A DNA stretch of 64,000 bases from an uncultured virus (IMG/VR IMGVR_UViG_3300043094_000104) (Duplodnaviria; Heunggongvirae; Uroviricota; Caudoviricetes), in the IMG/VR virus record IMGVR_UViG_3300043094_000104; one strand, written 5' to 3'. Below the pieces are notes generated by a model. That model had not been told where the DNA came from and ran no database searches. It saw only the letters and a list, made by a program, of their open reading frames with translations. This document shows, piece after piece, positions 123 to 60,904 of the stretch. A program made the position numbers and the translations under genes. The first letter of the stretch is position 1, and every line of letters starts with the position of its first letter.

Positions 123-198
123 TCTTCAATAGCTCAGTCGGTAGAGCCACGCACTGTTAATGCGTTTGTCGTTGGTTCGAGTCCAACTTGGAGAGCCA
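123..198 (+). tRNA. tRNA-Asn(GTT)
   Basis: Acceptor TCTTCAA/TTGGAGA, anticodon arm ACGCA-CTGTTAA-TGCGT, T-loop GTTCGAGTC, encoded CCA. Confidence 0.95.
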
Positions 199-201
199 AA
201 C

Positions 202-288
202 GCTGGTATGATGGAATAGGCAGACATAGCGGACTTAAAATCCGCTGATAGCAATATCGTATCGGTTCAAGTCCGATTACCAGCACCA
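202..288 (+). tRNA. tRNA-Leu(TAA)
   Basis: Acceptor GCTGGTA/TACCAGC, anticodon arm GCGGA-CTTAAAA-TCCGC, long variable arm, GTTCAAGTC, CCA. Confidence 0.95.
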
Positions 289-1961: not shown

Positions 1962-3065
1962 ATGAGTAAAAAACTTACCAACGAAGAATATCAAACTCGT
2001 CTTAATGAAATCTATGAAGAAAACGAATATATAGTCTTAGAGGAATATAAATCCTCTAAGACAAAAATTTTTCATCTTCATACTAAATGTAATAAAAAAT
2101 TTAAATCAACACCATATAATCTATTAATTAATAAATGTACCTGTCCAAATTGTAATAATATTAAAAAACATAATAAAAGTAATACAGAAGAGTTTAAACA
2201 AAAAGTATATAATTTATATAATAATGAATATACTGTTTTAGGTGATTATATTAATAATAAAACTAAAATTAAAATGCTTCATAATAAATGTAATACCGAA
2301 TTTGAAATAGCTCCTAATAATTTTTTATTAGGACGAAAATGTCCTAAGTGCTCTAAAAGATTAAGAAAAAATACTGAAATAGTTAAAAAAGAAATATATG
2401 ATTTATATAATGATGAATATACTTTATTAAGTGAATATATCAATGATAAAACTAAAATTAAAATTAAGCATAATAAATGTAATAATGATTTTGAAGTTAA
2501 ACCAAGTTATTTTTTAAAAGAAAATGGTACAAGATGTCCTTATTGTTTTGGATCTAAAAAGAAAACTACTGAAGAATATAAGAAAGAAGTATATAACAAA
2601 GTAAAAGATGAATATACTGTATTAGGAGAATATATTAATACAAATACTAAAATATTACATAGACATAATAAATGTAATAAAGAATATTTAGTATCTCCTA
2701 ATAAATTTTTAAATTATAATCGAAGGTGTCCTTATTGTAAATCTTCTAAAGGTGAAGAGAAAATAAGAGAATGGTTATTAGAAAATAATATTGTATTTGA
2801 AGAACAATATTCATTTTCAGATTGTAAGAATATTAATCCTCTTAAATTTGATTTTAAAATTAATATAAATAATTCATTTATATTATTAGAATATGATGGT
2901 ATACAACATTTTGAAAATACATTTTATACTGATGATTTTGAAAAACAGAAAATAAGAGATAATATTAAAAATCAATATTGCGAAAATAATGATTATAAAT
3001 TAATACGTATTTCTTATAAAGATTATAATAATATAGTTTCTATATTAAATAAATTAATAAAATAA
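1962..3065 (+). CDS. Putative homing endonuclease: 4 zinc-binding repeats + Vsr/EDxHD-like nuclease
   Basis: HxKC...CPxC repeats; SKGE...FDF...EYDGIQH nuclease motifs. Confidence 0.8.
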   Translation: MSKKLTNEEYQTRLNEIYEENEYIVLEEYKSSKTKIFHLHTKCNKKFKSTPYNLLINKCTCPNCNNIKKHNKSNTEEFKQKVYNLYNNEYTVLGDYINNKTKIKMLHNKCNTEFEIAPNNFLLGRKCPKCSKRLRKNTEIVKKEIYDLYNDEYTLLSEYINDKTKIKIKHNKCNNDFEVKPSYFLKENGTRCPYCFGSKKKTTEEYKKEVYNKVKDEYTVLGEYINTNTKILHRHNKCNKEYLVSPNKFLNYNRRCPYCKSSKGEEKIREWLLENNIVFEEQYSFSDCKNINPLKFDFKININNSFILLEYDGIQHFENTFYTDDFEKQKIRDNIKNQYCENNDYKLIRISYKDYNNIVSILNKLIK

Positions 3066-15930: not shown

Positions 15931-16173
15931 TTAGTTATTTCTCCATACAATAATTCCTGCTTTAGTATCATAAGGAGAGATTTCCACTTCAACAGAATCT
16001 TCTTCTGTAATCTGAATTTTATTCATTCTAAGCTTACCAGATAAAGAACAAATTACTTCAGCATTAAGGTCATCTAGAATTACCTTAAACTTAGTACCTG
16101 GAAGACAAGAATCAACAATTCCTGTTGCAGTGATATGTTCTTCTTTAACATACTTGTTTTTAATTTTTTTCAT
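15931..16173 (-). CDS. infA: Translation initiation factor IF-1
   Basis: KEEHI...G.V...LPGTKFKV...SGKLRMNKIQI...D.V.VEISPYD...G.IVWR. Confidence 0.93.
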   Translation of the reverse strand: MKKIKNKYVKEEHITATGIVDSCLPGTKFKVILDDLNAEVICSLSGKLRMNKIQITEEDSVEVEISPYDTKAGIIVWRNN

Positions 16174-22569: not shown

Positions 22570-23487
22570 TTGAAAAAACTAAATTATGAAGATGTTAGAA
22601 ATTATATTAATTCTACAGGAGAAACTTTAATCTCTAAAGAATATATCAATTATAATTTTAAATTAAATATTAAATGTAATAAATGTGGTAATATATACGG
22701 TATGAATTTAACTAATTTTAAAAAAGGAAAACGTTGTAATAAATGTGCTAAGAACTTAAGAATAAAAAAGATGAAACTAAATTATGAAGATGTTAAATCT
22801 TTTATAAACTCTACAGGAGAAACTTTAATCTCAACTGAATATAATAATTGTAAAGAAAAATTAAATATTAAATGTAATAAATGTGGTAATATTTATTCTA
22901 TTAGATTTTGTAATTTTAAACAGGGTAATAGATGTAATAAATGTTCTATCAAAGAAAGAAATGATAATAATAAACTTCTTTATGAAGATGTTAGAAATTA
23001 TATTAATTCCACAGGAGAAGAATTAATTTCTAAAGAATATAAAGGTTGTAAAACTTCTTTACAAGTTAAATGTAAAAAATGTAATAAAATTTATAAAGTT
23101 CGTTTTAATGATTTTAAACAAGGAAATAGATGTTCTTATTGTAAAGCTTCAAAAGGTGAAGAACGAATTAGAACATGGCTTGAAAATAATCATTATACTT
23201 TTGAAGAACAATATAAATTTGATGATTGTAAATATAAACGTTATTTGCCATTTGATTTTAAATTAGAAGATAAGAATGGTAAAATAATTTTAATAGAATA
23301 TGATGGAATACAACATTATCAAGAATCTTTTTATGGTAATAATTTAAAAGAACAGAAAAAGAGAGATTCCATCAAAGACGATTATTGTAATTCACATGAT
23401 AATATTGATTTATATAGAATTCCTTATACGGAATTTAATAACATAGATTCTATTCTTAAAGATATTTTTAATAAATATATATTATAA
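22570..23487 (+). CDS. Putative homing endonuclease: 3 CxxC...CxxC repeats + Vsr/EDxHD-like nuclease
   Basis: KCNKCG...RCNKC repeats; SKGE, LPFDF, IEYDGIQH. Confidence 0.8.
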   Translation: MKKLNYEDVRNYINSTGETLISKEYINYNFKLNIKCNKCGNIYGMNLTNFKKGKRCNKCAKNLRIKKMKLNYEDVKSFINSTGETLISTEYNNCKEKLNIKCNKCGNIYSIRFCNFKQGNRCNKCSIKERNDNNKLLYEDVRNYINSTGEELISKEYKGCKTSLQVKCKKCNKIYKVRFNDFKQGNRCSYCKASKGEERIRTWLENNHYTFEEQYKFDDCKYKRYLPFDFKLEDKNGKIILIEYDGIQHYQESFYGNNLKEQKKRDSIKDDYCNSHDNIDLYRIPYTEFNNIDSILKDIFNKYIL

Positions 23488-30218: not shown

Positions 30219-31770
30219 CATTACCATCATTATTCTTCACATAAGTTCGTTAATCTTATGCAGTTCTCTTATGAACTTCTCTAGTTTTATTTATATCTAG
30301 AGTTGAGACTATATCTTCATAGAAAATATTTCTATGCTCCCCATTTCGATTTAATCAGGAATTACTGAATTATTACTTCATACCTGAACCACTTGGCTCT
30401 ACTCTACTCTCTTCTTCAATTATTCTTTAAGAATAATTTATGATTTCGATAGTCGTTGAACGTTACAAAAAAAAACTTCTTATAAAAAGAAGCTTTTTTG
30501 TCTTCGCTGCTGATTATCCTTATATAAAGGAGTTTCCAGCAATTAAAGGAGTTTATACTGAGCAACATTATTCTTCGATTATTTCATAATTTTCATTTAA
30601 ATATTTGTCTAAATTTTTAATATAATCTTCATCGTAGGAAAGTCTTAAAAGATCTTTATTATTTTCTTTACACCAATCATTTTTCATTTTATCATGTTTT
30701 TGAGTTAAAGATAATTTATTTTCATCTTTATACCAACCAGCTTCAAAATGTTGTTTTCCATCATATTCAATAAGTAAATCATATTCAGTTAAGTAAAAAT
30801 CAAATCTTAATAAATATTTATCTTTACAAGTAGAAAAAGTTTTTTCTTGAATATAATTTATATAATTATTTTCTAAATATTCTTTTATTTCCTTAACCGC
30901 TTTAGATTCTGAATTATGTAAATTACAACAAGGACATCTATTTCCTCCTAAGAAGTGAGTTGGTGTCATTTCAAATATATAATGATTACAATTATTACTA
31001 TTATGTTGAAATTTTATTTTAGAGCTATTATTAATATAATCACTTATTACTATATATTCATCTTTAACTAAATCATATACTTCTTTTTTAAACTTTTCAG
31101 TAGTTTTTAAGTGTGTTCCAAAACAATAAGGACATCTTCTACCACTTGAAAATGATTTTGGCTCTACATAATAAATATTATTACATTTTTTATGACGTAA
31201 TTTTACTTTAGTCTTACAATTAATATAATTACTTAATAATTCATAATCATCACCAATTTCTTTACTAAATGAATCAGTAGTTTTCTTTTTAAGCTTAGAA
31301 CAATTAGGACATCTATGATTTTGATGTAAAAATTTAAAAGGTTTCATTTCAAATTCAGTATTACATTTATTATGTTTCATTTTAATTTTATCATTAGTTG
31401 TTTTATATTCACCTAATACTTCATATTCATTTCCTACTAAATTATATATTTCTTTTTTAAATCCTTCAGTAGTTTTCTTAGGTGTTCCAAAACAATAAGG
31501 ACATCTTCTACCTCTTAAAAAATCATTAGGTCTAGTTTCAAATTCAGTATTACATTTATTATGTTTCATTTTAATCTTAATTTTATTACTAACATATTCA
31601 CCTAATACTTCATATTCATTTCCTACTAAATTATATATTTCTTTTACAAATTCTTTTTGTGTTTTTCTTTGTTGACAATAAGCCATATTAAACACTTCCT
31701 TTCACGAATATAATATATACGTAAAAGTTTAAACTAAAATTATTTTTTTAACCATCGATAATAACTTCAT
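30219..31770 (-). mobile_element. Group I intron (1552 nt) carrying a homing endonuclease ORF
   Basis: Core P AATTGCTGGAAA, Q AATCAGCAG, R GTTCAACGACTA, S AAGATATAGTCT on minus strand; exon ends in U, intron ends in G; frame restored. Confidence 0.93.
30568..31695 (-). CDS. Intron-encoded homing endonuclease (4 zinc repeats + EDxHD/Vsr-like nuclease)
   Basis: HNKC...RCPYC repeats; LRFDFY, IEYDGKQH. Confidence 0.88.
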   Translation of the reverse strand: MFNMAYCQQRKTQKEFVKEIYNLVGNEYEVLGEYVSNKIKIKMKHNKCNTEFETRPNDFLRGRRCPYCFGTPKKTTEGFKKEIYNLVGNEYEVLGEYKTTNDKIKMKHNKCNTEFEMKPFKFLHQNHRCPNCSKLKKKTTDSFSKEIGDDYELLSNYINCKTKVKLRHKKCNNIYYVEPKSFSSGRRCPYCFGTHLKTTEKFKKEVYDLVKDEYIVISDYINNSSKIKFQHNSNNCNHYIFEMTPTHFLGGNRCPCCNLHNSESKAVKEIKEYLENNYINYIQEKTFSTCKDKYLLRFDFYLTEYDLLIEYDGKQHFEAGWYKDENKLSLTQKHDKMKNDWCKENNKDLLRLSYDEDYIKNLDKYLNENYEIIEE

Positions 31771-45292: not shown

Positions 45293-45394
45293 TTTTAAAG
45301 AGGTCGAAAGAGGGAATAATCCTTCTTTCGACTTAAAATTTAAATTTAAATCTAACAAATTTATATTTAAATTTATAAAATTCGGAGGTTAAAT

Positions 45395-52182: not shown

Positions 52183-52737
52183 TCATTTATTTTTATTTTC
52201 ATCATTTTCTTGTTTAACATTTCTCATCACATTTTCAAATGAATCAATAATGATATTTATTTTTTTGACAATAGCATTAAATATAGCTCTTGTTTTATCT
52301 ATATTAACACTTGATATGCCTTTTTCTAAGAAAAAGTTAATTTGCTCAGTTGTTTCTTCAAGAGAAGAGATGAGTAGGTTAATAATTTTATGTTGATTTT
52401 CATCGTTAATTTCATCAAAAGTGATATAATGTTTTGAATTATTAAATGTTATTTTAGTTTTCTCTAATAGTTCTAAAAGATTATTAAATTTCTTAAAATA
52501 CTGTAATTTTTGATAATTAGTAAAATTTAATAAATCTTGTTCAGGAGTAGTTCCATCTTTTTCTTCAGGAAACTTTTTATCTGTATCACTATCAGTATCT
52601 TCTATATCTAACATGGCAGGAGGTGGTGGAGGTGCTGCACCTTCAGCATTAGGATCTCCTTCAGCCATTTCTTCTCCTTCTTCATTAAAGTATAAATTAA
52701 AATATTTACTCTTTTTCAAAGCTATCACTCCTTTCAA
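52183..52737 (-). CDS. Hypothetical late protein
   Basis: Acidic/poly-Pro N-terminus; late-type promoter at 52754-52765. Confidence 0.65.
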   Translation of the reverse strand: MKGVIALKKSKYFNLYFNEEGEEMAEGDPNAEGAAPPPPPAMLDIEDTDSDTDKKFPEEKDGTTPEQDLLNFTNYQKLQYFKKFNNLLELLEKTKITFNNSKHYITFDEINDENQHKIINLLISSLEETTEQINFFLEKGISSVNIDKTRAIFNAIVKKINIIIDSFENVMRNVKQENDENKNK

Positions 52738-52800
52738 TTAAATATAACAAATATAAGATTTTGTTTTCCTATATAAATCGTATTAAACTATATAATTGTA

Positions 52801-53010
52801 TATATATTATAATTGTGAATAAAGTAAATAATTACTTATATTCACTTCATATTATTGAAGTATTAGTGACGATATTAAATCTAACATCACTTTAATAAAT
52901 GTTAGAGTTTGTATGTTCCCTCGAAGAAACTCATGACCTGAAAAGATAGGGTCGTTATATGAGATAACAGAGTAGAGGTAAATTAGTACAAATATATCTT
53001 GGAGGTCATT
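52801..53010 (+). ncRNA. Repeated structured 5' leader, copy 1 (with promoter)
   Basis: Shares TATATATTATAATTG, TTTGTATGTTCCC, TGAAAAGATA, AGAGTA..GGTAAA..TAGTACAA with copies 2 and 3; covarying stems. Confidence 0.75.
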
Positions 53011-53385
53011 ATGACTACAACAAAAACTATCACTAATCGTTTTAACACACAGGCTGAAGGCGTAGCTTTCATTAAGAATCTTCTTGACAGCGATAGAAGA
53101 GAAGAAGAACTTATAACTGGTAAGTTCTTTGATATTCTTAAAAGAAGCACTGTAAACATTCAGGTAAGAAACGGTAAAACTGCATTGGTGTTTGACACAG
53201 ACTATGGAACTGTGTTGGAAACATTAACTGACAGCGATAAATTCTATTATATGGTAAAGGAGTTTACTCCTACATATGAAAGAAATATTATGGATGATGT
53301 ACTTATTTATATAGCACCGAACAACACCATGTTCTTTAAGGTTAGCAGAAATGGTTCTGTGTACTTGACATATAATAAGGACTAA
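53011..53385 (+). CDS. Hypothetical early protein
   Basis: ATG after GGAGG; the track start at 52999 overlaps the SD. Confidence 0.75.
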   Translation: MTTTKTITNRFNTQAEGVAFIKNLLDSDRREEELITGKFFDILKRSTVNIQVRNGKTALVFDTDYGTVLETLTDSDKFYYMVKEFTPTYERNIMDDVLIYIAPNNTMFFKVSRNGSVYLTYNKD

Positions 53386-53496
53386 TTACTAAAATTATAA
53401 TCACCTTGCTTCTTATGAATGCGAGGTGATTTTTTTTTCTAATTTTTTTATTTATATATTATTTATATGTGATTAAATAAAAAGGAGTGAAATAAA

Positions 53497-53910
53497 ATGA
53501 CTAAATCACAAATAAAACTGTGTGAGAAAATTTATAATAATAATAAATCTTCTTACTCAAGACTTACTATGATGGCATTTTTGTTTAAAGGTAAGTCATT
53601 AATTTCTCAGGGTATAAACTCTGATAAAACTGATCCTATTCAAAATAAGTTCAGAAAACAAATTATAAATAATGATAACTATATAGACAAAAGACATGCA
53701 GAAGTTGATTGTCTTAAAAGTTTCATTGAAGACAAAGAAATTGATTTTAAAAGTCTTACATTATTTGTTCTTTCAAAAAAAGCTAATGGAGAATATAGAA
53801 ATAGTAAACCTTGTCCTATTTGCAGAAAAATGATTGAAAGCTTAGGTGTAGGTGAAATTTGTTATATTTATAATGGTAGACTTATAAATGAAAAACTTCT
53901 CAATGTTTAA
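53497..53910 (+). CDS. Zinc-dependent cytidine/dCMP deaminase-family protein
   Basis: GIN, HAEVDC, SKPCPIC. Confidence 0.85.
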   Translation: MTKSQIKLCEKIYNNNKSSYSRLTMMAFLFKGKSLISQGINSDKTDPIQNKFRKQIINNDNYIDKRHAEVDCLKSFIEDKEIDFKSLTLFVLSKKANGEYRNSKPCPICRKMIESLGVGEICYIYNGRLINEKLLNV

Positions 53911-53984
53911 TTAAAATTAAATTTTAAATACTATTATAACAAAATAGTATTAAGAAAATGAATATTTTTAAAGGAGTAAATAAA

Positions 53985-54551
53985 ATGGTAAATCTAATTA
54001 AAAATGAAAATGATTCAATTCTTAAAGTGGATGGTACTGATTTTAAGATTTCTAATGAGCTAGCTAGTTTTCTAGAAGCTACTAATAGTCTTAATGATGA
54101 TACTATCACTAAAACCATCAGCAAAGCTGGTGTAATTACATTGAAAATTAAGAGTCTTACTTACACTATCTGTAATGATAATAAGAAAAAGATCCTTAAT
54201 ATGTACAAAATTAATAATAATGAAGGAGTAATTCATATGAAGACATTTATCAAGTTTATGAAACCAAAGCAGGAAAGTGGTAAGAAGAACCCTTTTAATT
54301 CTCTTATTCTAAGAGTACTTAAGCCAGCACTTAATAACGTGGAATTTGAAGATATTGATGCTGTAAGATCTACAGTATATGATACACTTAAGCCACTTAT
54401 GAGTGAAAATTCTAAGTGGGAAATTGAAGATAATACTAAGACACTTGGTCTTGTTGTAAAGAATGAGTATCTTAAGGAAGGTAAGGAATATCCTTCTCAT
54501 AATATCTTCTTTATTAATGTAGTACCAGAAGAGTCTACAGCATCTGAATGA
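53985..54551 (+). CDS. Hypothetical protein
   Basis: ATG after AAGGAG; second in-frame SD+ATG at 54237. Confidence 0.65.
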   Translation: MVNLIKNENDSILKVDGTDFKISNELASFLEATNSLNDDTITKTISKAGVITLKIKSLTYTICNDNKKKILNMYKINNNEGVIHMKTFIKFMKPKQESGKKNPFNSLILRVLKPALNNVEFEDIDAVRSTVYDTLKPLMSENSKWEIEDNTKTLGLVVKNEYLKEGKEYPSHNIFFINVVPEESTASE

Positions 54552-54638
54552 TATATAAAAGGTATAAGCTTTAAAAGCTTATACCTTTTTATTAAACAAA
54601 TTTTAATTTATATAATAAATTTTAGGAGGACTATTGTC

Positions 54639-55094
54639 ATGGAAGAAAGAATTGAAAAATTTACAAATAAAGAATTTTATGAGGTAGTTAATAAAATTTC
54701 TACTGCAGTTATTAAAAGAGTATCATCAATTGAAATGAATTCTATTATAATTAGAGCTAATATTAATGATTATTATATTTTTATTGGAAAAAACTTATTT
54801 ATATTTTCTCTTAAAGAATATAGCGATGATAAATATATTACATTTGAACATATTCTTTTAATTAATAAAAAAAATCATAGTGTAAATAATTTTAATGATA
54901 TTAAACTAAAAGATATATCAATTACTGATAATAGCGATACTATTGGTGATACTATTGACGAATTAATAACGGAAATAAACTATCAAAATGATAAAGAATT
55001 TAATAATATATTACTATCTCGATATCAAATTTATAAAAAGAATCTTATCTCAGAAATTGAGAAAGTTAAAAATTATATTGAATTAGTGTTTTAA
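54639..55094 (+). CDS. Hypothetical protein
   Basis: SD AGGAGG. Confidence 0.7.
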   Translation: MEERIEKFTNKEFYEVVNKISTAVIKRVSSIEMNSIIIRANINDYYIFIGKNLFIFSLKEYSDDKYITFEHILLINKKNHSVNNFNDIKLKDISITDNSDTIGDTIDELITEINYQNDKEFNNILLSRYQIYKKNLISEIEKVKNYIELVF

Positions 55095-55105
55095 AAGGAG
55101 TTATT

Positions 55106-55504
55106 ATGATAATTAAATGTAAAAAAGATTTTGAAGCTTTTGTAAGTGTTATGATTGCATCTTGTATAAAGAGTGATAAGAAAATTTATATTTATGAAGA
55201 AAATAATATAAAAACTAATAATATGATTTATAAGCATGTATGTATTGAAAAAGATGTTTTTTCATTTATTTATAGTTTTTCTAAAACATCTAGCCTTCAG
55301 TTTGCTCATCAAAAACTTGATTCAGAAAGAATTTATAATATGTTTAAACAAGGGGAAGAAATTTCTTCTAATATTAATCTTTATCTTATTGATTGTGAAC
55401 ATAGTTTAACACATGATTTTAATCTTACTTTATCAAATGAAGAAATCAATAAAGAAATTCATTCAATATGTAATTACATTGAAGTTGTACTTAATGTAAT
55501 CTAA
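55106..55504 (+). CDS. Hypothetical protein
   Basis: SD AAGGAG; C-terminal NYIE(L/V)V resembles upstream ORF. Confidence 0.7.
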   Translation: MIIKCKKDFEAFVSVMIASCIKSDKKIYIYEENNIKTNNMIYKHVCIEKDVFSFIYSFSKTSSLQFAHQKLDSERIYNMFKQGEEISSNINLYLIDCEHSLTHDFNLTLSNEEINKEIHSICNYIEVVLNVI

Positions 55505-55588
55505 AATAAATAAATTTTAATTTAATACATAAGCTTATTTTAAATAAGCTTATGTATTTTTTTTTTTGTATTTAATTATAATGCTGAA

Positions 55589-55785
55589 TATATATTATAA
55601 TTGCGAATAAAGTATTTAATTACTTATATTCATACTTAGTGTAGATAATTAAATCCAATAAGCACTTAAATAAATATTGGAGTTTGTATGTTCCCTTCGA
55701 AGAAACTCTTGGTTGAAAAGATATATACCATATAAGAGATAACAGAGTAAAGGTAAATTAGTACAAATATATCTTGGAGGTCATT
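55589..55785 (+). ncRNA. Repeated structured 5' leader, copy 2
   Basis: 3' end GAGATAACAGAGTA(A/G)AGGTAAATTAGTACAAATATATCTTGGAGGTCATTATGACTA nearly identical to copy 1. Confidence 0.75.
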
Positions 55786-56253
55786 ATGACTAATCGGGCT
55801 AAAGAGAGTAAAGAAAAATGTGTGAATATGTTCACTTTTCAACTTCCGCTTATCCTGAGTACTTATCAGCTACATGCTAATATGAAAAACACTCAAGAAG
55901 GCTTAGCTGAAATACCCGAAATCAAATTGGATGAAAATATGGCTAAGAGCTTAATCTTATCCAATTCCATTATTCTTGAAAAAGATAATGGAGAAAAAAC
56001 GATCTATGATTTATCTTATGATGAGTCTATAGATTGTATTGAGGAGTATGATCATGAAAGTGACGATATTCGCCGTTATTGTGCTAGCGTTGATCGTGAT
56101 ATCGATTATTCTAAGAGAATAACAAACGCAACATCAAGTCTTCTTAATCTCATTATGGATAAAAAGCTTTATGTCATTTCCATCATTAATGGTGGAGTAT
56201 GTCTTAAAGAAAGTGAAGGTGAACATGTGTATAGACTGTATTCAAAAGATTAA
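55786..56253 (+). CDS. Hypothetical early protein
   Basis: ATG after GGAGG. Confidence 0.75.
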   Translation: MTNRAKESKEKCVNMFTFQLPLILSTYQLHANMKNTQEGLAEIPEIKLDENMAKSLILSNSIILEKDNGEKTIYDLSYDESIDCIEEYDHESDDIRRYCASVDRDIDYSKRITNATSSLLNLIMDKKLYVISIINGGVCLKESEGEHVYRLYSKD

Positions 56254-56363
56254 TCAATAAAATGTGTGGAAAGGAGAATGATATTGATGATTAAAAAACG
56301 TACTGTAATGGTGCGTTTTTTTTTTAGTAAAAATTATTGACTGTATTTAATTATAATGCTGAA

Positions 56364-56552
56364 TATATATTATAATTGTGAATAAGAATAATTTATATTC
56401 TATTCAAATAAGGATGAGTATGAATCTAGTAGCCTTATTACTAGAAATTTGTATGTTCCCGAAAAACATGTATGGTTGAAAAGATATAATACCAATATAC
56501 ATGAGAAAAGAGTAGGTAAATAGTACAAGTTAATATTCAAAAGGAGTTTATT
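56364..56552 (+). ncRNA. Repeated structured 5' leader, copy 3 (divergent)
   Basis: Same conserved blocks with different but pairing stems. Confidence 0.7.
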
Positions 56553-56960
56553 ATGTTTACTATTAATTCTGTTGAAGATTTCAAAATGATTGTAAAAAGA
56601 GTTTTAGAAGTTGCTGCAACAGGTGAAAAGGACATAAGAACTGTAAAATCCTTTAACGATAACGATGATGACTGGTTTGTAGGAATCGTCATTGAAGATG
56701 ATGAAGCTCGCAATATGGTTACAATTCAGGGAGGAAGAAATAATGACTATATTGTAGCAGATCTTTTCTTTAACGTTAAGGAGAAGGATGTAAATCTTCT
56801 TATGAATGAAAAGTATTACGGAAACGGTAATCTCTGCCATCTGGTTAGAGTTAATGAAGATTTTACCGCAGTGCTTTCCATTCGCAGATTTATCGACAAT
56901 GAAGAAGACTTTGAAGCCCTTGTCGGTACGGTAAAGTTTATGGTTATGAAAACATCATAA
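56553..56960 (+). CDS. Hypothetical early protein
   Basis: SD AAGGAG. Confidence 0.75.
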   Translation: MFTINSVEDFKMIVKRVLEVAATGEKDIRTVKSFNDNDDDWFVGIVIEDDEARNMVTIQGGRNNDYIVADLFFNVKEKDVNLLMNEKYYGNGNLCHLVRVNEDFTAVLSIRRFIDNEEDFEALVGTVKFMVMKTS

Positions 56961-57084
56961 TCTAAACAATAAAAAATAACGGCACTCTTACATATTCATC
57001 AAGCTGTTTTAAATTGAATTGTAGAGTGTCGTTATATTATTCACATACGCCTAAAAAATTAATTTTATTAAAGGAGAAAAAAAA

Positions 57085-57306
57085 ATGAACAATATCTTTG
57101 AAATGAACAACAATAACATGATGAGTGACCTGAACAAGGTCTTTGAAGCAAACAGAAAGCAGGATGAAAAAATGGCGGAGAATATCCGTAACATGACAGG
57201 AAATAAAAAGCCTGCAACTGAAGCCATCAAAAATCTTTGGGAGCGTTATGCTCTTGAAGGAAATATTGAAGGTATGGAAAAACTCGAACGAGTTTATTCT
57301 ATCTAA
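57085..57306 (+). CDS. Small hypothetical protein
   Basis: SD AAGGAG; followed by terminator-like TACCCCCT/AGGGGGTA + T-run. Confidence 0.75.
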   Translation: MNNIFEMNNNNMMSDLNKVFEANRKQDEKMAENIRNMTGNKKPATEAIKNLWERYALEGNIEGMEKLERVYSI

Positions 57307-57400: not shown

Positions 57401-58339
57401 ATGTCAAAAAAGTATACTATTGATGATATTAAAGAAATGATTTATAATAAATATAATGGAGAATATATTTGTTTATCAAATGAATATAAAAATAATAAAG
57501 AGAAAATTAAGATAAAGCATAATATATGTAATAATATATTTGAAATGAGAAGTGGTAATTTTTTAAATAATAATAATCGTTGTCCTTACTGTAAGAATAA
57601 AAATGATGGAAAAACTAATAAAACAGTTACTAAAATGACTAAAGAAGATTTTATTAAACGTTTAGATAATGATTATGAGTTAGTCAGTGATTTTATTAAT
57701 TTAAAAACTAATGTAGACTTATTACATAAATCATGTGGTAATATTTATAATGTAAGACCCGATAATTTTTTATATAATAATCATAGATGTGAATGTACTA
57801 GAGTTAAGCATAAATATACAATAGAAGATATTCAAAAGTATTTTAATAAAATAAATGACTATGAACTAATTTCTAAAGAATATGTCAATAAAAATGAAAA
57901 ATTAAAAATTAAGCATTTATCATGTGATAATATATTTGAAATGTCATTAAATGATTTTAAGAATAATAATTATAGATGTCCTAAATGTAAAGCATCTAAA
58001 GGAGAAAATAATGTAAGAACTTTTCTATTAAATAATAATATTAAATTTACTGAGCAAAAGCGTTTCAATGATTGTAAAGATAAAAGAACTTTACCGTTCG
58101 ATTTTTATTTAGAAGATTATAATATCTGTATAGAATATGATGGTGAATTACATTATAATAAAGCTAGATATAAAAATGATGAAGAATATAATCAGGATAA
58201 ATTAAATATTACTAAAAAACATGATGAAATTAAAAATGAATATTGTAGAGTAAATAATATAAGACTTATTAGGATTCCATATACAGAGTTTGGTAATATT
58301 GAAAAGATTCTTAAAAAGGAGTTGAATATTAATGCCTAG
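57401..58339 (+). CDS. Zinc-repeat Vsr/EDxHD-like nuclease (array gene 1, 3 repeats)
   Basis: HxxC...RC repeats, SKGE, LPFDFY, IEYDGELH. Confidence 0.8.
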   Translation: MSKKYTIDDIKEMIYNKYNGEYICLSNEYKNNKEKIKIKHNICNNIFEMRSGNFLNNNNRCPYCKNKNDGKTNKTVTKMTKEDFIKRLDNDYELVSDFINLKTNVDLLHKSCGNIYNVRPDNFLYNNHRCECTRVKHKYTIEDIQKYFNKINDYELISKEYVNKNEKLKIKHLSCDNIFEMSLNDFKNNNYRCPKCKASKGENNVRTFLLNNNIKFTEQKRFNDCKDKRTLPFDFYLEDYNICIEYDGELHYNKARYKNDEEYNQDKLNITKKHDEIKNEYCRVNNIRLIRIPYTEFGNIEKILKKELNINA

Positions 58340-59066
58340 AAAATTAACTTATAAAGAAGTTAAAGATATTATAGAAGAAAATGGTGAATATACTTTATTA
58401 TCTAAAGAGTATTTAAATAATAGACAGCATTTATTAATAAGACATAATTGTAATAAATGTAATAATAATATCTTTGAAAGAAGTCTTTATGTATTTCAAG
58501 CAGGTAAAAAATGTCATAAATGTGCTATAATAAATAGAACTAAATTAAAAACTAAAACTACTGAAGAATTTAAAGATGATATTAAAAGAATATTTAATGA
58601 TGAAATGGAAGTTATAGGAGATTATAAAAATAATAAAACTAAAATATTAATGTATAGTAGAAAGTGTGGTCATTATTTTGAAGGGTATCCTATAAATCTT
58701 TTAAAAGGTTGTGGATGTAATATATGTACTATAAGATCTAAAGGTAATGAAAAAATAGATTCTATATTAAATGAATTAAATATAAATCATAAGTCTGAAT
58801 ATAAATTTGAAGATTGTAAATATAAAAGAACTTTATCATTTGATTTTTACTTAGAAGATTATAATATCTGTATAGAATATGATGGAGAACAACATTATTC
58901 TAAGAATACTTTTAGATATGGTGAAAAATTTGAAGAACAACAAAAACGTGATAATATTAAGAATAATTATTGTAAAACAAACAATATAAAACTTATTAGA
59001 ATTCCTTATACTGAATTCGATAATATTGAAAACATTCTTAAAGAGAATATAAAAGGAGAAAAATAA
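58332..59066 (+). CDS. Zinc-repeat Vsr/EDxHD-like nuclease (array gene 2, 2 repeats)
   Basis: SKGN, FDFY, IEYDGEQH. Confidence 0.8.
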   Translation: MPRKLTYKEVKDIIEENGEYTLLSKEYLNNRQHLLIRHNCNKCNNNIFERSLYVFQAGKKCHKCAIINRTKLKTKTTEEFKDDIKRIFNDEMEVIGDYKNNKTKILMYSRKCGHYFEGYPINLLKGCGCNICTIRSKGNEKIDSILNELNINHKSEYKFEDCKYKRTLSFDFYLEDYNICIEYDGEQHYSKNTFRYGEKFEEQQKRDNIKNNYCKTNNIKLIRIPYTEFDNIENILKENIKGEK

Positions 59067-59067
59067 A

Positions 59068-59991
59068 ATGTCAAGAAAATATACTATAGAAGAAGTTAAA
59101 AATATGATTCATGATAAATATAATAGTGAATATATTTGTATATCGGAAGAATATATTAATAATAAAGAAAAGATTAAAATTAAACATTTGAAATGTAATA
59201 ATATATTTGAAATGAGATTAAATAATTTCTTATTAGGTAATAAATGTCCTTACTGTAAGAATAAAAATGATGGAAAAACTAATAAAACAGTTAAGAAAAT
59301 GACTAAAGAAGACTTTATTAATAAATTAGACGATGATTATGTATTAATAGGAGATTTTATTAATCTTAAAACTAATGTAAATCTATTACATAAAACTTGT
59401 GGCAATATTTATAATGTAAGACCTGGAAATTATCTTTATAATAATCATCGTTGTAACTGTACTAGAACTAAACATAAGTATACTATTGAAGATATTCAAG
59501 AATTCTTTAATAAAATAGATGATTATGAATTAATTTCTAAAGAATATGTAAATACAATTAGTAAAATTAAAATAAAGCATTTAAAATGTAATAATATATT
59601 TGAAATGAGATTTAATGACTTTAAAAATAATAATAATAGATGTCCTAAATGTAGTTCTTCAAAAGGTGAAAATATTATAAGAACTTTTCTATTAAATAAT
59701 AATATTGGTTTTATTGAACAAAAATGCTTTGAAGATTGTAAAGATAAAAGAGTATTACCATTTGATTTTTATTTAGAGGATTATAATATACTTATTGAAT
59801 ATGACGGTGAATTACATTATAAAGAAAGTAGATATAAAAATAGTCAAGATAAATTAAATATTATTAAAAATCATGATAATATTAAGAATAATTATTGTAA
59901 GGAAAATAATATAAAACTTATTAGAATACCTTATATAGAATTTAATAATATTGAAGAAATTCTTAAAAAGGAGTTGAATGTAAATGGGTAA
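59068..59991 (+). CDS. Zinc-repeat Vsr/EDxHD-like nuclease (array gene 3, close paralog of gene 1)
   Basis: Shares CPYCKNKNDGKTNKTV.KMTKEDFI with gene 1. Confidence 0.8.
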   Translation: MSRKYTIEEVKNMIHDKYNSEYICISEEYINNKEKIKIKHLKCNNIFEMRLNNFLLGNKCPYCKNKNDGKTNKTVKKMTKEDFINKLDDDYVLIGDFINLKTNVNLLHKTCGNIYNVRPGNYLYNNHRCNCTRTKHKYTIEDIQEFFNKIDDYELISKEYVNTISKIKIKHLKCNNIFEMRFNDFKNNNNRCPKCSSSKGENIIRTFLLNNNIGFIEQKCFEDCKDKRVLPFDFYLEDYNILIEYDGELHYKESRYKNSQDKLNIIKNHDNIKNNYCKENNIKLIRIPYIEFNNIEEILKKELNVNG

Positions 59992-60904
59992 AAAATTTAC
60001 TTATACAGAGGTTAAAAATATTATAGAAAAAGAAAATGGATATATTCTAATATCTGAAGAATATATTAATAATAGACAAAAATTAAAAATAAAACATTTA
60101 GAATGTAATAATCTATTCGAAATGGCATTTACAAATTTTTATAATTCTGGTAATAGATGTCCTTATTGTGCAAATAAAATAAGAAATAGAAATAATAAAT
60201 ATAAAATAAGTGATATAAATAGTTATATGAAAAAATTTGGTTATGAATGTTTATCGAAAGAATATCAAAATTACCGACAAAAATTAAAAATAAAACATTT
60301 AGAATGTAATAATATATTTGAAATGACTTTTGATAATTTTAAAAATGGTAAAAATCGTTGTCCTTACTGTTCTAATCATATTAAATATACTATAGAAGAT
60401 GTTAAGAAAATAATTAAAGATAAAGATCCTGATTATGAATGTTTGTCAGAAGAATATATTAACAATAAAACTAATTTAAAAATTAAACATCTTAAATGTA
60501 ATAATATTTATGAAGTAAATTTAAATAATTTTTTGAATAAAGAAAATAGATGTCCTTATTGTAAGACTTCTAAAGGAGAAAAAATTATAAATGATTATTT
60601 ATTAAAGAATAATATAAAATTTATAAGAGAATATAAATTTGAAAATTGTAAAGATAAAAGAGTATTACCATTTGATTTTTATTTAGAGGATTATAATATA
60701 CTTATTGAATATGACGGTGAATTACATTATAAAGAAAGTAGATATCGTGATTCTAAATATAATAAAGATAAATTAAATAAACAAATATTACATGATAATA
60801 TTAAAAATGAATATTGTAAAAATAATCATATAAAACTTATTAGAATACCGTATACAGAATTTAATAATATTGAAGAAATTCTTAAAGAAGAATTAAATTT
60901 GTAA
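59984..60904 (+). CDS. Zinc-repeat Vsr/EDxHD-like nuclease (array gene 4, 3 repeats)
   Basis: KIKHLxC...NRCPYC x3; nuclease core identical to gene 3. Confidence 0.8.
   Translation: MGKKFTYTEVKNIIEKENGYILISEEYINNRQKLKIKHLECNNLFEMAFTNFYNSGNRCPYCANKIRNRNNKYKISDINSYMKKFGYECLSKEYQNYRQKLKIKHLECNNIFEMTFDNFKNGKNRCPYCSNHIKYTIEDVKKIIKDKDPDYECLSEEYINNKTNLKIKHLKCNNIYEVNLNNFLNKENRCPYCKTSKGEKIINDYLLKNNIKFIREYKFENCKDKRVLPFDFYLEDYNILIEYDGELHYKESRYRDSKYNKDKLNKQILHDNIKNEYCKNNHIKLIRIPYTEFNNIEEILKEELNL

What the first reader, a model, noticed from the sequence alone, without database searches (positions are those of the whole stretch)
52801..56552. Novel roughly 200-nt structured leader repeated three times ahead of unrelated early ORFs
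Seen: copies at 52801-53010, 55589-55785 and 56364-56552 each start at TATATATTATAATTG and end at an SD. Shared order: (i) a GAATA...TATTC hairpin; (ii) a hairpin with different but pairing stems (TCTAACAT/ATGTTAGA, TCCAATA/TATTGGA, TCTAGTA/TACTAGA) whose loop complements an upstream segment (AGTG/CACT, AGTGT/GCACT, TAAGG/CCTTA), i.e. a covarying pseudoknot or kissing loop; (iii) a long arm closed by TTGTA/TACAA containing CC..GG pairs beside a GAA/AGTA loop-E-like motif and variable stems (CTCAT/ATGAG, CTCTT/AAGAG, CATGTAT/ATACATG) capped by an invariant TGAAAAGATA loop. The three downstream proteins show no similarity. Inference: an RNA-level cis element (ribozyme, riboswitch, translational enhancer or protein-binding site) that is also a portable expression cassette, analogous to but more elaborate than T4-type PeSL cassettes. 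I do not recognise it as a named RNA family.
Basis: partly seen in the sequence, partly recalled or inferred. Interest (0 to 1): 0.85.

Follow-up and report, generated by a model that had tools for sequence, protein, structure and literature searches.

The report
Folded leader RNA on jumbo-phage early genes
An uncultured giant phage of animal guts puts the same elaborately folded, uncatalogued RNA leader (a hairpin at the very start, a pseudoknot and a long arm) between its early promoter and seven unrelated small genes, probably to control how long these first messages last and how well they are translated, though its function is untested.

Summary
The window holds three copies (52801-53010, 55589-55785, 56364-56552). 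A near-identical complete 265-kb genome (handle G001) holds seven, all on one strand.

The first 16 bases of each copy are not RNA. They are the core of an AR9-type virion-RNA-polymerase early promoter. This places the predicted starts at 52817, 55605 and 56380 and gives leaders of 194, 181 and 173 nt.

The fold is a 5' hairpin, an H-type pseudoknot and a four-tier arm. On nine distinct sequences 92.9% of cells pair against 81.7% in shuffles, and 21 of 44 pairs change on both sides (0 of 500 shuffles).

I found no match in Rfam 15, none in five cultured AR9-like phages, and no true match in the metagenome or genome collections.

Each unit is a single-gene cassette: early promoter, leader, small ORF and, in 6 of 7, a terminator. 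The copies are mosaics of one another.

Best reading (about 0.45): a cis-acting leader that sets message stability and translation and offers one shared binding surface. Riboswitch, ribozyme and antitermination readings are unsupported but not excluded.

This scan had already found the same element on another genome (e1-5710737).

The parts
52778..52816 (+). Copy 1: extended early promoter. Conserved block from about -39, with the AR9-type core at 52800-52810 and a 6-base spacer at 52811-52816.
   Evidence: The AR9 early consensus AAATATATATTAT-(6N)-G+1 is taken from PMC5312081 (passages read). In G001 the core occurs 26 times on the + strand and 2 times on the - strand. A position weight matrix finds 10 sites with the extended form.
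52817..53010 (+). Copy 1 leader RNA, 194 nt, from the predicted +1 G to the base before the start codon at 53011.
   Evidence: Model hit of 203.7 bits. An RNA-library contig covers 52874-53340 and so joins leader and ORF. The +1 is inferred from the AR9 rule and was not mapped.
52817..52843 (+). Copy 1, P1: hairpin at the very 5' end of the predicted transcript.
   Evidence: In G001, 18 of 23 predicted early starts begin with such a hairpin.
52845..52860 (+). Extra 5-bp hairpin found in copy 1 only. It is an insertion relative to the other copies.
   Evidence: Alignment gaps; fold.
52865..52869 (+). Copy 1, 5' strand of the pseudoknot. It pairs with 52887-52891.
   Evidence: Helix 2: 4 of 5 pairs change on both sides and 91.1% of cells pair. 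Copy 1 sits one column out of register in that alignment.
52880..52906 (+). Copy 1, P2 hairpin (stem 52880-52886 with 52900-52906). Its loop holds the 3' strand of the pseudoknot (52887-52891).
   Evidence: Helix 3: 3 of 7 pairs change on both sides and 93.7% of cells pair. RNAalifold recovers it.
52908..52992 (+). Copy 1, P3 arm. P3a is 52908-52913 with 52987-52992. P3b is 52919-52922 with 52975-52978. The GAA/AGTA internal loop is 52923-52925 with 52971-52974. P3c is 52930-52934 with 52959-52963. P3d is 52935-52938 with 52950-52953. The terminal loop is 52939-52949.
   Evidence: Helices 4-7. RNAalifold recovers P3a, P3b and P3c. The junction word and the loop word are located.
53001..53013 (+). 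Copy 1 ribosome-binding site (53001-53005) and start codon (53011-53013) of a 124-aa ORF (53011-53385).
   Evidence: The ribosome-binding site lies at -10 or -11 in all seven copies.
53398..53445 (+). Terminator-like hairpin plus T-run after the copy 1 ORF.
   Evidence: folding energy -18.3 kcal/mol.
55566..55604 (+). Copy 2 early promoter (core 55588-55598). A terminator-like hairpin at 55524-55558 lies directly upstream.
55605..55785 (+). Copy 2 leader RNA, 181 nt. The pseudoknot is 55638-55642 with 55662-55666. P2 is 55654-55660 with 55675-55681. The P3 arm is 55683-55767 with its terminal loop starting at 55714. The ribosome-binding site is 55776-55780 and the start codon is 55786.
   Evidence: Model hit of 159.6 bits.
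56341..56379 (+). Copy 3 early promoter (core 56363-56373). A terminator-like hairpin at 56293-56321 lies upstream.
56380..56552 (+). Copy 3 leader RNA, 173 nt, the most divergent copy in the window. P1 is 56380-56405. The pseudoknot is 56408-56413 with 56433-56438. P2 is 56425-56431 with 56439-56445. The P3 arm is 56448-56529 with its terminal loop starting at 56477. The ribosome-binding site is 56543-56546 and the start codon is 56553.
   Evidence: Model hit of 50.9 bits with R1 and 119.7 bits with R2 in G001. RNA-library contigs cover 56396-56730, 56402-56601 and 56434-57085. Its stems differ in sequence from the other copies but still pair.

Best explanation
This is a family of paralogous, structured 5' untranslated leaders ('leader A'). 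It belongs to an uncultured AR9-like jumbo phage of about 265 kb.

Each copy is part of a self-contained single-gene cassette: an early promoter of the type read by the injected virion RNA polymerase, a leader of about 150-195 nt, one small unrelated ORF, and usually a terminator.

The RNA starts with a hairpin at its very 5' end. An H-type pseudoknot follows, then a four-tier arm. The junction of the arm, its internal loop and its tip are the best conserved parts. The ribosome-binding site lies about 8-16 nt after the arm.

Most likely mechanism (inferred, not shown): the leader acts in cis after transcription.
- The terminal hairpin and the knotted domain shield the 5' end from 5'-end-dependent decay. 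In Firmicutes that would be RNase J1 or RNase Y.
- The fold keeps the start region in a fixed context.
- The conserved unpaired surfaces give a single trans-acting factor, a phage or host RNA-binding protein or the ribosome, one common handle on seven messages. Their translation or lifetime can then be set or shut off together.

As DNA, the repeats also recombine with one another.

Shown: the copies, the promoter match, the covariation and the cassette layout. Inferred: the start site, the early timing and every functional step.
For: Fold:
- 92.9% of cells pair against 81.7 +/- 1.1% in shuffles (0 of 500).
- 21 of 44 pairs change on both sides, against a shuffled mean of 11.2 (0 of 500).
- With the 3' partners slid by 1-3 columns only 39-51% of cells pair.
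- RNAalifold recovers P1, P2, P3a, P3b and P3c by itself, with 13 compensated pairs.

Promoter:
- The core and spacing equal the AR9 early consensus (PMC5312081, passages read).
- The exact core occurs 26 times on the + strand and 2 times on the - strand of G001.
- The major capsid protein is 44.5% identical to that of AR9/PBS1.
- A fragment of a multisubunit RNA polymerase is encoded in the window.

5' hairpin: 18 of 23 predicted early starts begin in a stem. Shifted positions give 5-12 of 23. Random G starts give a mean of 9 and a maximum of 15.

Cassette:
- 6 of 7 leader-A genes have a hairpin plus T-run within about 100 nt of the stop codon.
- The ribosome-binding site lies at -10 or -11 in 7 of 7 copies.
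- The downstream proteins are unrelated to each other, with the best pairwise E-value at 0.13. They fall in no common family.

RNA:
- Contigs from four metatranscriptome libraries join leader to ORF.
- Word depth between neighbouring genes ranges from 0 to about 300.

Recombination: copy c7 is 97% and 92% like c2 in P1 and in the pseudoknot-P2 block, but 88-89% like c1 in the arm.
Against: - No function was tested.
- The start site and the early timing rest on analogy with AR9.
- All sequences are paralogues or near-identical strains of one phage lineage. The alignment was fitted to the structure by the model, which inflates the pair counts (warning attached).
- Single-sequence folding energies are unremarkable, with z-scores from -2.62 to +0.52.
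- The divergent copy c6 lacks P1 and the GAA/AGTA loop and has a changed tip. If these parts are the binding surface, c6 should escape control.
- The RNA libraries may contain DNA. One contig (55763-56375) covers the promoter of copy 3.
- No candidate binding protein was identified.
Confidence: 0.45

Rival explanations
1. Riboswitch: the pseudoknot and arm form a pocket for a small molecule, and binding changes translation of the seven genes.
For: It is a large, conserved fold with a pseudoknot, and its best conserved bases are unpaired. In three copies the 5' strand of P3b can instead pair with the ribosome-binding site: probability 0.68 in c4, 0.37 in c7 and 0.14 in c1.
Against: - No Rfam aptamer matches, even at E up to 10.
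- The genes share no function or pathway.
- The alternative pairing is missing in four of seven copies, and the predicted partner of the ribosome-binding site differs from copy to copy.
- No terminator or sequestering hairpin lies between the arm and the start codon.
Confidence: 0.1
2. The leader is cut off or accumulates by itself as a small RNA. It then acts as a decoy or sponge for a host protein or nuclease, or cleaves itself.
For: There are seven copies behind strong early promoters. The 128-base piece shared by copies c2 and c4 has word depth 119-131, while the ORF behind copy 2 has 14.6-16.4.
Against: - The shared piece sums the depth of several copies, so its depth says little.
- Other contigs run from the leader into the ORF.
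- No ribozyme family matches.
- The repeat extends through the ribosome-binding site and the first codons. This ties it to translation of the ORF.
Confidence: 0.1
3. Leader-peptide control: the invariant junction word holds an AUG preceded in some copies by a ribosome-binding-like sequence. Translation of this short upstream frame (it begins M-F-P in 6 of 7 copies) would open the arm and tune the main ORF.
For: The AUG is invariant in all nine distinct sequences. Read by eye, the purine-rich end of P2 lies 5 nt upstream of it, at nearly the spacing seen at the main ORF.
Against: - The frame runs only 3 to 17 codons.
- A one-base difference between copies c2 and c4 changes the whole peptide.
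- Copy c7 changes the third residue.
- The upstream purine run is weak in c1 and c5, absent in c3, and buried in P2.
- The substitutions follow base pairing, not codons.
Confidence: 0.07
4. Processive antitermination RNA, like HK022 put (named from recall): the nascent leader binds the phage polymerase so that it reads through terminators.
For: The element lies directly after early promoters. In the copy 1 unit, further genes follow the first terminator.
Against: 6 of 7 units are one gene followed by a terminator, and then in several cases a new promoter. A near-consensus early core with one mismatch follows the copy 1 terminator, so read-through is not needed there (row 80498).
Confidence: 0.05
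5. It matters only as DNA: repeats kept by gene conversion that serve recombination and gene shuffling, with the RNA fold irrelevant.
For: The copies are mosaics, and blocks of 100% identity occur 65 kb apart. PeSL cassettes set a precedent (PMC2839356, abstract read).
Against: Compensatory changes keep six helices paired while their sequences diverge, and G-U pairs fit only the sense strand. Recombination alone does not predict either.
Confidence: 0.05

Closest known systems
Early transcription units of Bacillus jumbo phage AR9 (virion RNA polymerase promoters; Lavysh et al. 2017, PMC5312081, passages read)
   Same: The promoter core and the 6-base spacing to a G start are the same. Long 5' UTRs occur in AR9 (26-491 nt), and the authors mention an unexplained motif in early UTRs. 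The capsid protein is related (44.5% identity).
   Different: The covariance model finds no copy in AR9, LPJP1, BpSp, Machias or PALS_2 (0 of 5 at E up to 1). AR9's UTR motif is shown only in a supplementary figure that I could not see, so I could not compare it.
PeSL (promoter-early stem-loop) cassettes of T4-type phages (Arbiol et al. 2010, PMC2839356, abstract read)
   Same: Both are short regulatory cassettes repeated through the genome next to small genes of unknown function, and both recombine with one another.
   Different: PeSLs are a sigma-70-like promoter plus a terminator stem-loop. Here the promoter is of the phage-polymerase type, and the conserved part is a pseudoknotted 5' UTR of 150-195 nt. 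The upstream terminators are not conserved in sequence.
5'-terminal stem-loop mRNA stabilisers (E. coli ompA, B. subtilis aprE leaders; named from recall, no paper read here)
   Same: A hairpin starts at or within 3 nt of the predicted 5' end.
   Different: Here the hairpin is only the first of three domains, and it is shared by most early messages of the phage, not only by leader A. Copy c6 lacks it.
[quoted passage not shown]
   Same: Both are repeated structured elements in the early messages of a Bacillus-type phage.
   Different: The P3 arm is broken by large asymmetric loops rather than forming about 20 bp of duplex. Cleavage was not tested. What I say of those sites beyond the citation is recalled.
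T-box leaders (Rfam RF00230)
   Same: Both have a long arm carrying an S-turn-like internal loop, plus a pseudoknot, upstream of a gene in a low-GC setting.
   Different: No Rfam hit at E up to 10. There is no T-box sequence or antiterminator, the order of domains differs, and the downstream genes are not aminoacyl-tRNA related.

Membership tests
Any Rfam 15 family | Covariance-model score at or above the family's gathering score | tested here: not met
   (whole window): only 4 tRNAs. (52600-56700, E up to 10): 5 weak hits, all far below their cut-offs; the only one inside a copy is DUF805b at 14.9 bits against 35.6. (four other copies, E up to 1): one unrelated hit.
AR9-type virion-RNAP early transcription unit | Promoter consensus AAATATATATTAT-(6N)-G+1 | tested here: met
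   All three window copies carry the 11-base core, 6 bases and then G. In G001, 23 sites fit exactly.
AR9-type virion-RNAP early transcription unit | Transcript 5' end at the predicted G, appearing early and without protein synthesis | not testable with these tools
   Only assembled contigs of RNA libraries were available. None of the 32 listed pieces (32 more were not shown) bridges 52817 or 56380, which is at most a weak hint.
PeSL cassette | Sigma-70-like early promoter | tested here: not met
   No -35 hexamer lies at 16-18 bp from the -10-like box. The conserved block instead matches the phage-polymerase consensus.
PeSL cassette | Conserved stem-loop that terminates transcription as part of the repeat | tested here: not met
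   Terminator-like hairpins lie upstream of five of the seven copies (c2, c3, c5, c7 and, less clearly, c4), but their sequences differ. The conserved stem-loops lie downstream of the start.
PeSL cassette | Recombination between copies | tested here: met
   Block-wise identities show mosaic copies.
Riboswitch | Expression platform with mutually exclusive pairing conserved across members | tested here: not met
   The predicted partner of the ribosome-binding site differs between copies. Anti-SD pairing is seen in 3 of 7 only.
Riboswitch | Association with genes of one pathway or ligand | tested here: not met
   Seven unrelated small proteins: one M48-like metalloprotease motif, two small membrane proteins and four without a named function.
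Riboswitch | Ligand binding | not testable with these tools
   Needs in-line probing or calorimetry.
H-type pseudoknot | Hairpin loop pairs with a strand outside the hairpin, kept by covariation | tested here: met
   4 of 5 pairs change on both sides and 91.1% of cells pair. The geometry is fixed: 8-11 nt upstream of P2 and 0-2 nt into the loop. Caveat: within single copies the match is no better than 10-78% of shuffles.
5'-terminal stem-loop stabiliser | Stem begins within a few nt of the 5' end | tested here: met
   Met relative to the predicted +1 in six of seven copies (c3 and c5 only as a suboptimal fold; P1 is supported). Copy c6 has none.
5'-terminal stem-loop stabiliser | Lengthens mRNA half-life | not testable with these tools
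   Needs decay assays.
Sarcin-ricin / loop E (S-turn) motif | AGUA opposite GAA next to a helix (consensus recalled, not from a call) | tested here: inconclusive
   The letters are present next to P3b in six of seven paralogous copies and absent in c6. The three-dimensional motif cannot be tested here.
T-box leader | T-box sequence with antiterminator, and a match to RF00230 | tested here: not met
   No hit at E up to 10.

The most novel reading that the evidence does not exclude
The knotted leader is a new class of phage riboregulator in one of two forms. Either it is the RNA operator of a seven-gene early regulon, read by a dedicated phage or host factor or by a small ligand, which lets a giant phage switch its first messages on or off together. 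Or it is a bacterial counterpart of the exonuclease-resistant knots of RNA viruses, one that stops 5'-to-3' decay by RNase J.
Probability: 0.2. Interest if true: 0.8.

Novelty: new variant of a known kind. Interest (0 to 1): 0.6.

Why it matters
Large structured RNAs with pseudoknots are rare in phage messages, and none has been described for the early genes of jumbo phages that bring their own RNA polymerase. One full-text search listed no paper on this. The AR9 transcriptome paper mentions only an unexplained UTR motif.

If the leader controls the stability or translation of the first messages, it would give three things:
- a handle on how these phages take over a cell before any phage protein is made;
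- a compact, portable expression module for low-GC hosts;
- a testable RNA-protein or RNA-ligand pair.

Earlier notes of this scan report similar but unrelated promoter-leader cassettes in other gut jumbo phages, which I did not check. That suggests a general design principle.

Tried and rejected
- **Second pseudoknot.** I tested pairing between the terminal loop of the arm and the bases just before the ribosome-binding site. Runs of 5-8 pairs exist in most copies, but 7-85% of shuffles do as well, and copy c6 has no run of 4. Rejected as unsupported.
- **Switch that masks the ribosome-binding site.** Not conserved.
- **Pseudoknot judged on single sequences.** Not above chance. It is accepted only on covariation.
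- **Wider relatives by pattern.**
  - Four pattern scans of viral contigs gave true copies on six contigs, all of one phage lineage. Five of the contigs come from samples with near-consecutive numbers; the sixth comes from another sample.
  - The metagenome scan (1 locus) and the genome scan (5 loci) gave chance matches only, on inspection.
- **Wider relatives by BLAST and model.**
  - blastn against 50,697 phage records found nothing.
  - The model found nothing in five cultured relatives. The tool notes that an empty answer proves little.
- **Through a downstream protein.** Four loci that encode 41-44% identical relatives of the c6 protein carry no leader (best 14.3 bits, E 0.34). Two of them were read directly.
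- **Window hit at 45303-45393.** It scores 28.6 bits and is a terminator-like hairpin, not a copy.
- **Metatranscriptome contigs.** They cannot show starts or strands. Stretches without cover, and contig ends next to adapter sequence, were not interpreted.
- **T-box and K-turn readings of the arm.** Considered by eye and dropped.
- **Per-helix script.** The same question was answered from alignment columns.

Full report
**What is there**

Reading 52500-57000 and the repeat search (families D6, D7, D20) confirm three direct copies at the stated coordinates. Each ends at a ribosome-binding site and a start codon (53011, 55786, 56553). They align with 78% mean column identity.

Their diagnostic words are far commoner than chance. 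The 13-base junction word has 3 exact matches. With up to 2 mismatches it has 6, against 1.41 expected, and 0 of 100 shuffles reach 6. The 10-base loop word has 7 matches against 1.22 expected.

**What genome this is**

- The window has 24.9% G+C.
- It encodes a fragment of a multisubunit RNA polymerase, a divergent family B DNA polymerase, a gp23-like capsid protein, a prohead protease, an IF-1 homologue and tRNAs.
- The capsid protein is 44.5% identical to that of Bacillus phages AR9 and PBS1. Jumbo phages of Listeria and Staphylococcus come next.
- No assembly is held for the window itself. A virus record, G001, is held instead: 265,109 bp, rated 100% complete, sharing 98% of the window's sampled words.

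**Copy number and spread**

A covariance model built from three copies scores the window copies at 203.7, 159.6 and 50.9 bits. The next hit scores 28.6 bits and is only a terminator-like hairpin.

In G001 the model finds seven copies, all on the + strand. A second model built from nine distinct sequences finds the same seven. I call them c1, c2 and c3 (the window's three), then c6, c4, c5 and c7 in genome order.

Four pattern scans of viral contigs found true copies on six contigs. All belong to this phage lineage, and one comes from a different sample. The metagenome scan (1 locus) and the genome scan (5 loci) gave only chance matches on inspection.

The following searches found nothing:
- blastn against 50,697 phage records;
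- the model on AR9, LPJP1, BpSp, Machias and PALS_2 (0 of 5);
- Rfam 15, which gives nothing for any copy.

**The first 16 bases are promoter**

The AR9 transcriptome paper gives the early promoter as AAATATATATTAT-(6N)-G, with G as the start. It is read by the virion polymerase (PMC5312081, passages read).

Every copy has the 11-base core, six bases and then G. The predicted starts are therefore 52817, 55605 and 56380, and the leaders are 194, 181 and 173 nt.

In G001 the exact core occurs 26 times on the + strand and twice on the - strand. That explains why all copies share one strand.

A weight matrix of positions -40 to -1 picks out ten sites that also share an upstream block. Seven of them are this leader. 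The other three carry a different, shorter leader.

The start site and the early timing are inferences from AR9. They were not measured.

**The fold**

Individual minimum-energy folds recover most helices, but their energies are unremarkable, with z-scores from -2.62 to +0.52. The case for the fold is comparative.

On nine distinct sequences aligned by the model I counted a structure of seven helices with 44 pairs:
- 92.9% of cells pair, against 81.7 +/- 1.1% in shuffles (0 of 500).
- 21 pairs change on both sides, against a shuffled mean of 11.2 (0 of 500).
- With partners slid by 1-3 columns only 39-51% of cells pair.

| Helix | Pairs changed on both sides | Cells paired |
|---|---|---|
| P1 | 5 of 13 | 90.9% |
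| Pseudoknot | 4 of 5 | 91.1% |
| P2 | 3 of 7 | 93.7% |
| P3a | 1 of 6 | 100% |
| P3b | 2 of 4 | 94.1% |
| P3c | 3 of 5 | 100% |
| P3d | 3 of 4 | 77.4% |

RNAalifold, given no structure, returns P1, P2, P3a, P3b and P3c with 13 compensated pairs.

Caveats:
- The alignment was fitted to the structure.
- The rows are paralogues and strain variants.
- In c6 the model laid 'P1' onto promoter DNA.
- c1 is one column out of register in the pseudoknot.

Within single copies the pseudoknot's complementarity is ordinary for such A+U-rich RNA. Between 10% and 78% of shuffles do as well. What supports it is the fixed geometry, together with the fact that c3, c5 and c6 have different letters that still pair.

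**Limits of conservation**

Copy c6 starts directly at the pseudoknot and has no P1. It lacks the GAA/AGTA internal loop, and it changes two bases of the terminal loop. A strain variant of c6 changes them again, and it also carries a compensated change in P2.

The most constant part in all nine sequences is the junction between P3a and P3b.

**Context**

- The ribosome-binding site lies at -10 or -11 in all seven copies.
- Six of the seven genes are followed within about 100 nt by a strong hairpin plus T-run.
- Terminator-like hairpins of differing sequence stand just upstream of most promoters.
- Each unit is therefore a single-gene cassette.
- The seven proteins (77-155 aa) show no significant similarity to each other. 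The best pairwise result is E = 0.13, c1 against c2, so a remote link between those two is not excluded.
- They share no family. One has an M48-like metalloprotease motif, two look like small membrane proteins, and one matches a PHROG of unknown function.
- Relatives of that last protein in other phages (41-44% identity) have no such leader.
- The copies are mosaics. c7 resembles c2 in P1 (97%) and in the pseudoknot-P2 block (92%), but resembles c1 in the arm (88-89%, against 73-76% to c2). c4 has an unrelated P1 (52%) and an arm 94-100% like that of c2.

**Expression**

Thirteen animal-gut metatranscriptome runs hold part of the stretch. I laid four of them, available as contigs only.
- Contigs join leader to ORF at 52874-53340, 56396-56730, 56402-56601 and 56434-57085.
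- Loose ends show that the c4 and c6 leaders are also contiguous with their ORFs.
- Word depth between neighbouring genes ranges from 0 to about 300, which fits RNA better than DNA.
- Contigs cannot show starts, and the libraries may contain DNA. One contig (55763-56375) covers the promoter of copy 3.

**A general feature seen on the way**

18 of 23 predicted early starts in G001 begin in a stem of at least 4 pairs. Shifted positions give 5-12 of 23. Random G starts give a mean of 9 and a maximum of 15. P1 is therefore a property of this phage's early messages in general. The part specific to leader A is the pseudoknot and the arm.

**How it most likely works**

The cassette layout points to a cis-acting role in the fate and translation of the message:
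- The repeat extends through the ribosome-binding site and the first codons.
- A hairpin sits at the 5' end.
- A knotted domain stands directly before an apparently unmasked start region.

The conserved unpaired junction, the S-turn-like loop and the tip look like a recognition surface shared by seven messages. I put this reading at about 0.45.

I found no conserved structure that would switch the ribosome-binding site, no support for a second pseudoknot onto the pre-SD bases, and no common gene function. These results weigh against a riboswitch (0.1).

A short upstream frame starts at the invariant AUG of the junction. Its length and peptide are not conserved, so I give that reading 0.07. Antitermination fits poorly with one-gene units that end in terminators (0.05). 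A purely DNA-level role is contradicted by the covariation (0.05). A released small RNA or a ribozyme cannot be excluded (0.1).

**Comparison and novelty**

- The promoter makes these units members of the AR9-type early class.
- The leader itself matches nothing catalogued.
- PeSL cassettes (PMC2839356, abstract read) share repetition and recombination. They do not share the promoter type or the conserved element.
- 5' stem-loop stabilisers and the SP82 processing sites (seen only as a citation in PMC4838370) are functional analogies.

One full-text search listed no paper on structured early leaders of jumbo phages. The AR9 paper mentions an unexplained motif in early UTRs, shown in a figure I could not see.

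This scan had already reported the same seven-copy leader on another genome (e1-5710737). It has also reported unrelated leader cassettes in other gut jumbo phages.

**Verdict**

This is a real, new family of structured leader RNA. It has a narrow spread, and its function is untested.

Noticed in passing
G001 96329, 106319 and 158764 (outside the window; loci L125, L126, L128): Three further sites share the same extended early promoter but carry a different, shorter leader of about 70-90 nt. It has its own conserved blocks and an unusual purine-rich stretch before the start codon. Each precedes a small unrelated ORF followed by a terminator.
   Followed up: partly
G001, 23 predicted early starts (for example window 52817, 55605, 56380): Most early transcripts of this phage are predicted to begin with a hairpin exactly at +1: 18 of 23, against a mean of 9 of 23 for random G starts. 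This looks like a general 5'-end design of its early messages.
   Followed up: yes
window 53938-53949: A match to the AR9 late-promoter consensus (AACA, six bases, TA) lies 36 nt ahead of the ORF that starts at 53985. That ORF has the highest word depth of the stretch in two RNA libraries. All listed RNA contigs there begin downstream of 53949. Found by eye.
   Followed up: partly
window 57401-60904: Four tandem paralogous genes (244-312 aa) with long internal DNA repeats. One reaches the DUF4379 treble-clef zinc-finger family. The same domain occurs in three more genes of the window (1962-3062, 22570-23484, 30568-31692).
   Followed up: no
window 15931-16170 (- strand): The phage encodes a 79-aa homologue of translation initiation factor IF-1 (Pfam E 3.6e-15). 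This is of possible interest next to leaders that may act on translation.
   Followed up: no
window 123-285 and 1775-1932: Four tRNA genes in two pairs.
   Followed up: no
window 53469-53487: After the terminator of the first leader gene there is an early-promoter-like core with one mismatch, six bases and then G (row 80498). The next gene may therefore have its own weak early promoter.
   Followed up: no
window 53011-53385 and 55786-56253: The proteins behind copies 1 and 2 align weakly over 142 residues (19.7% identity, E 0.13 in a ten-protein set) and have similar C-terminal ends. They may be very distant paralogues.
   Followed up: no
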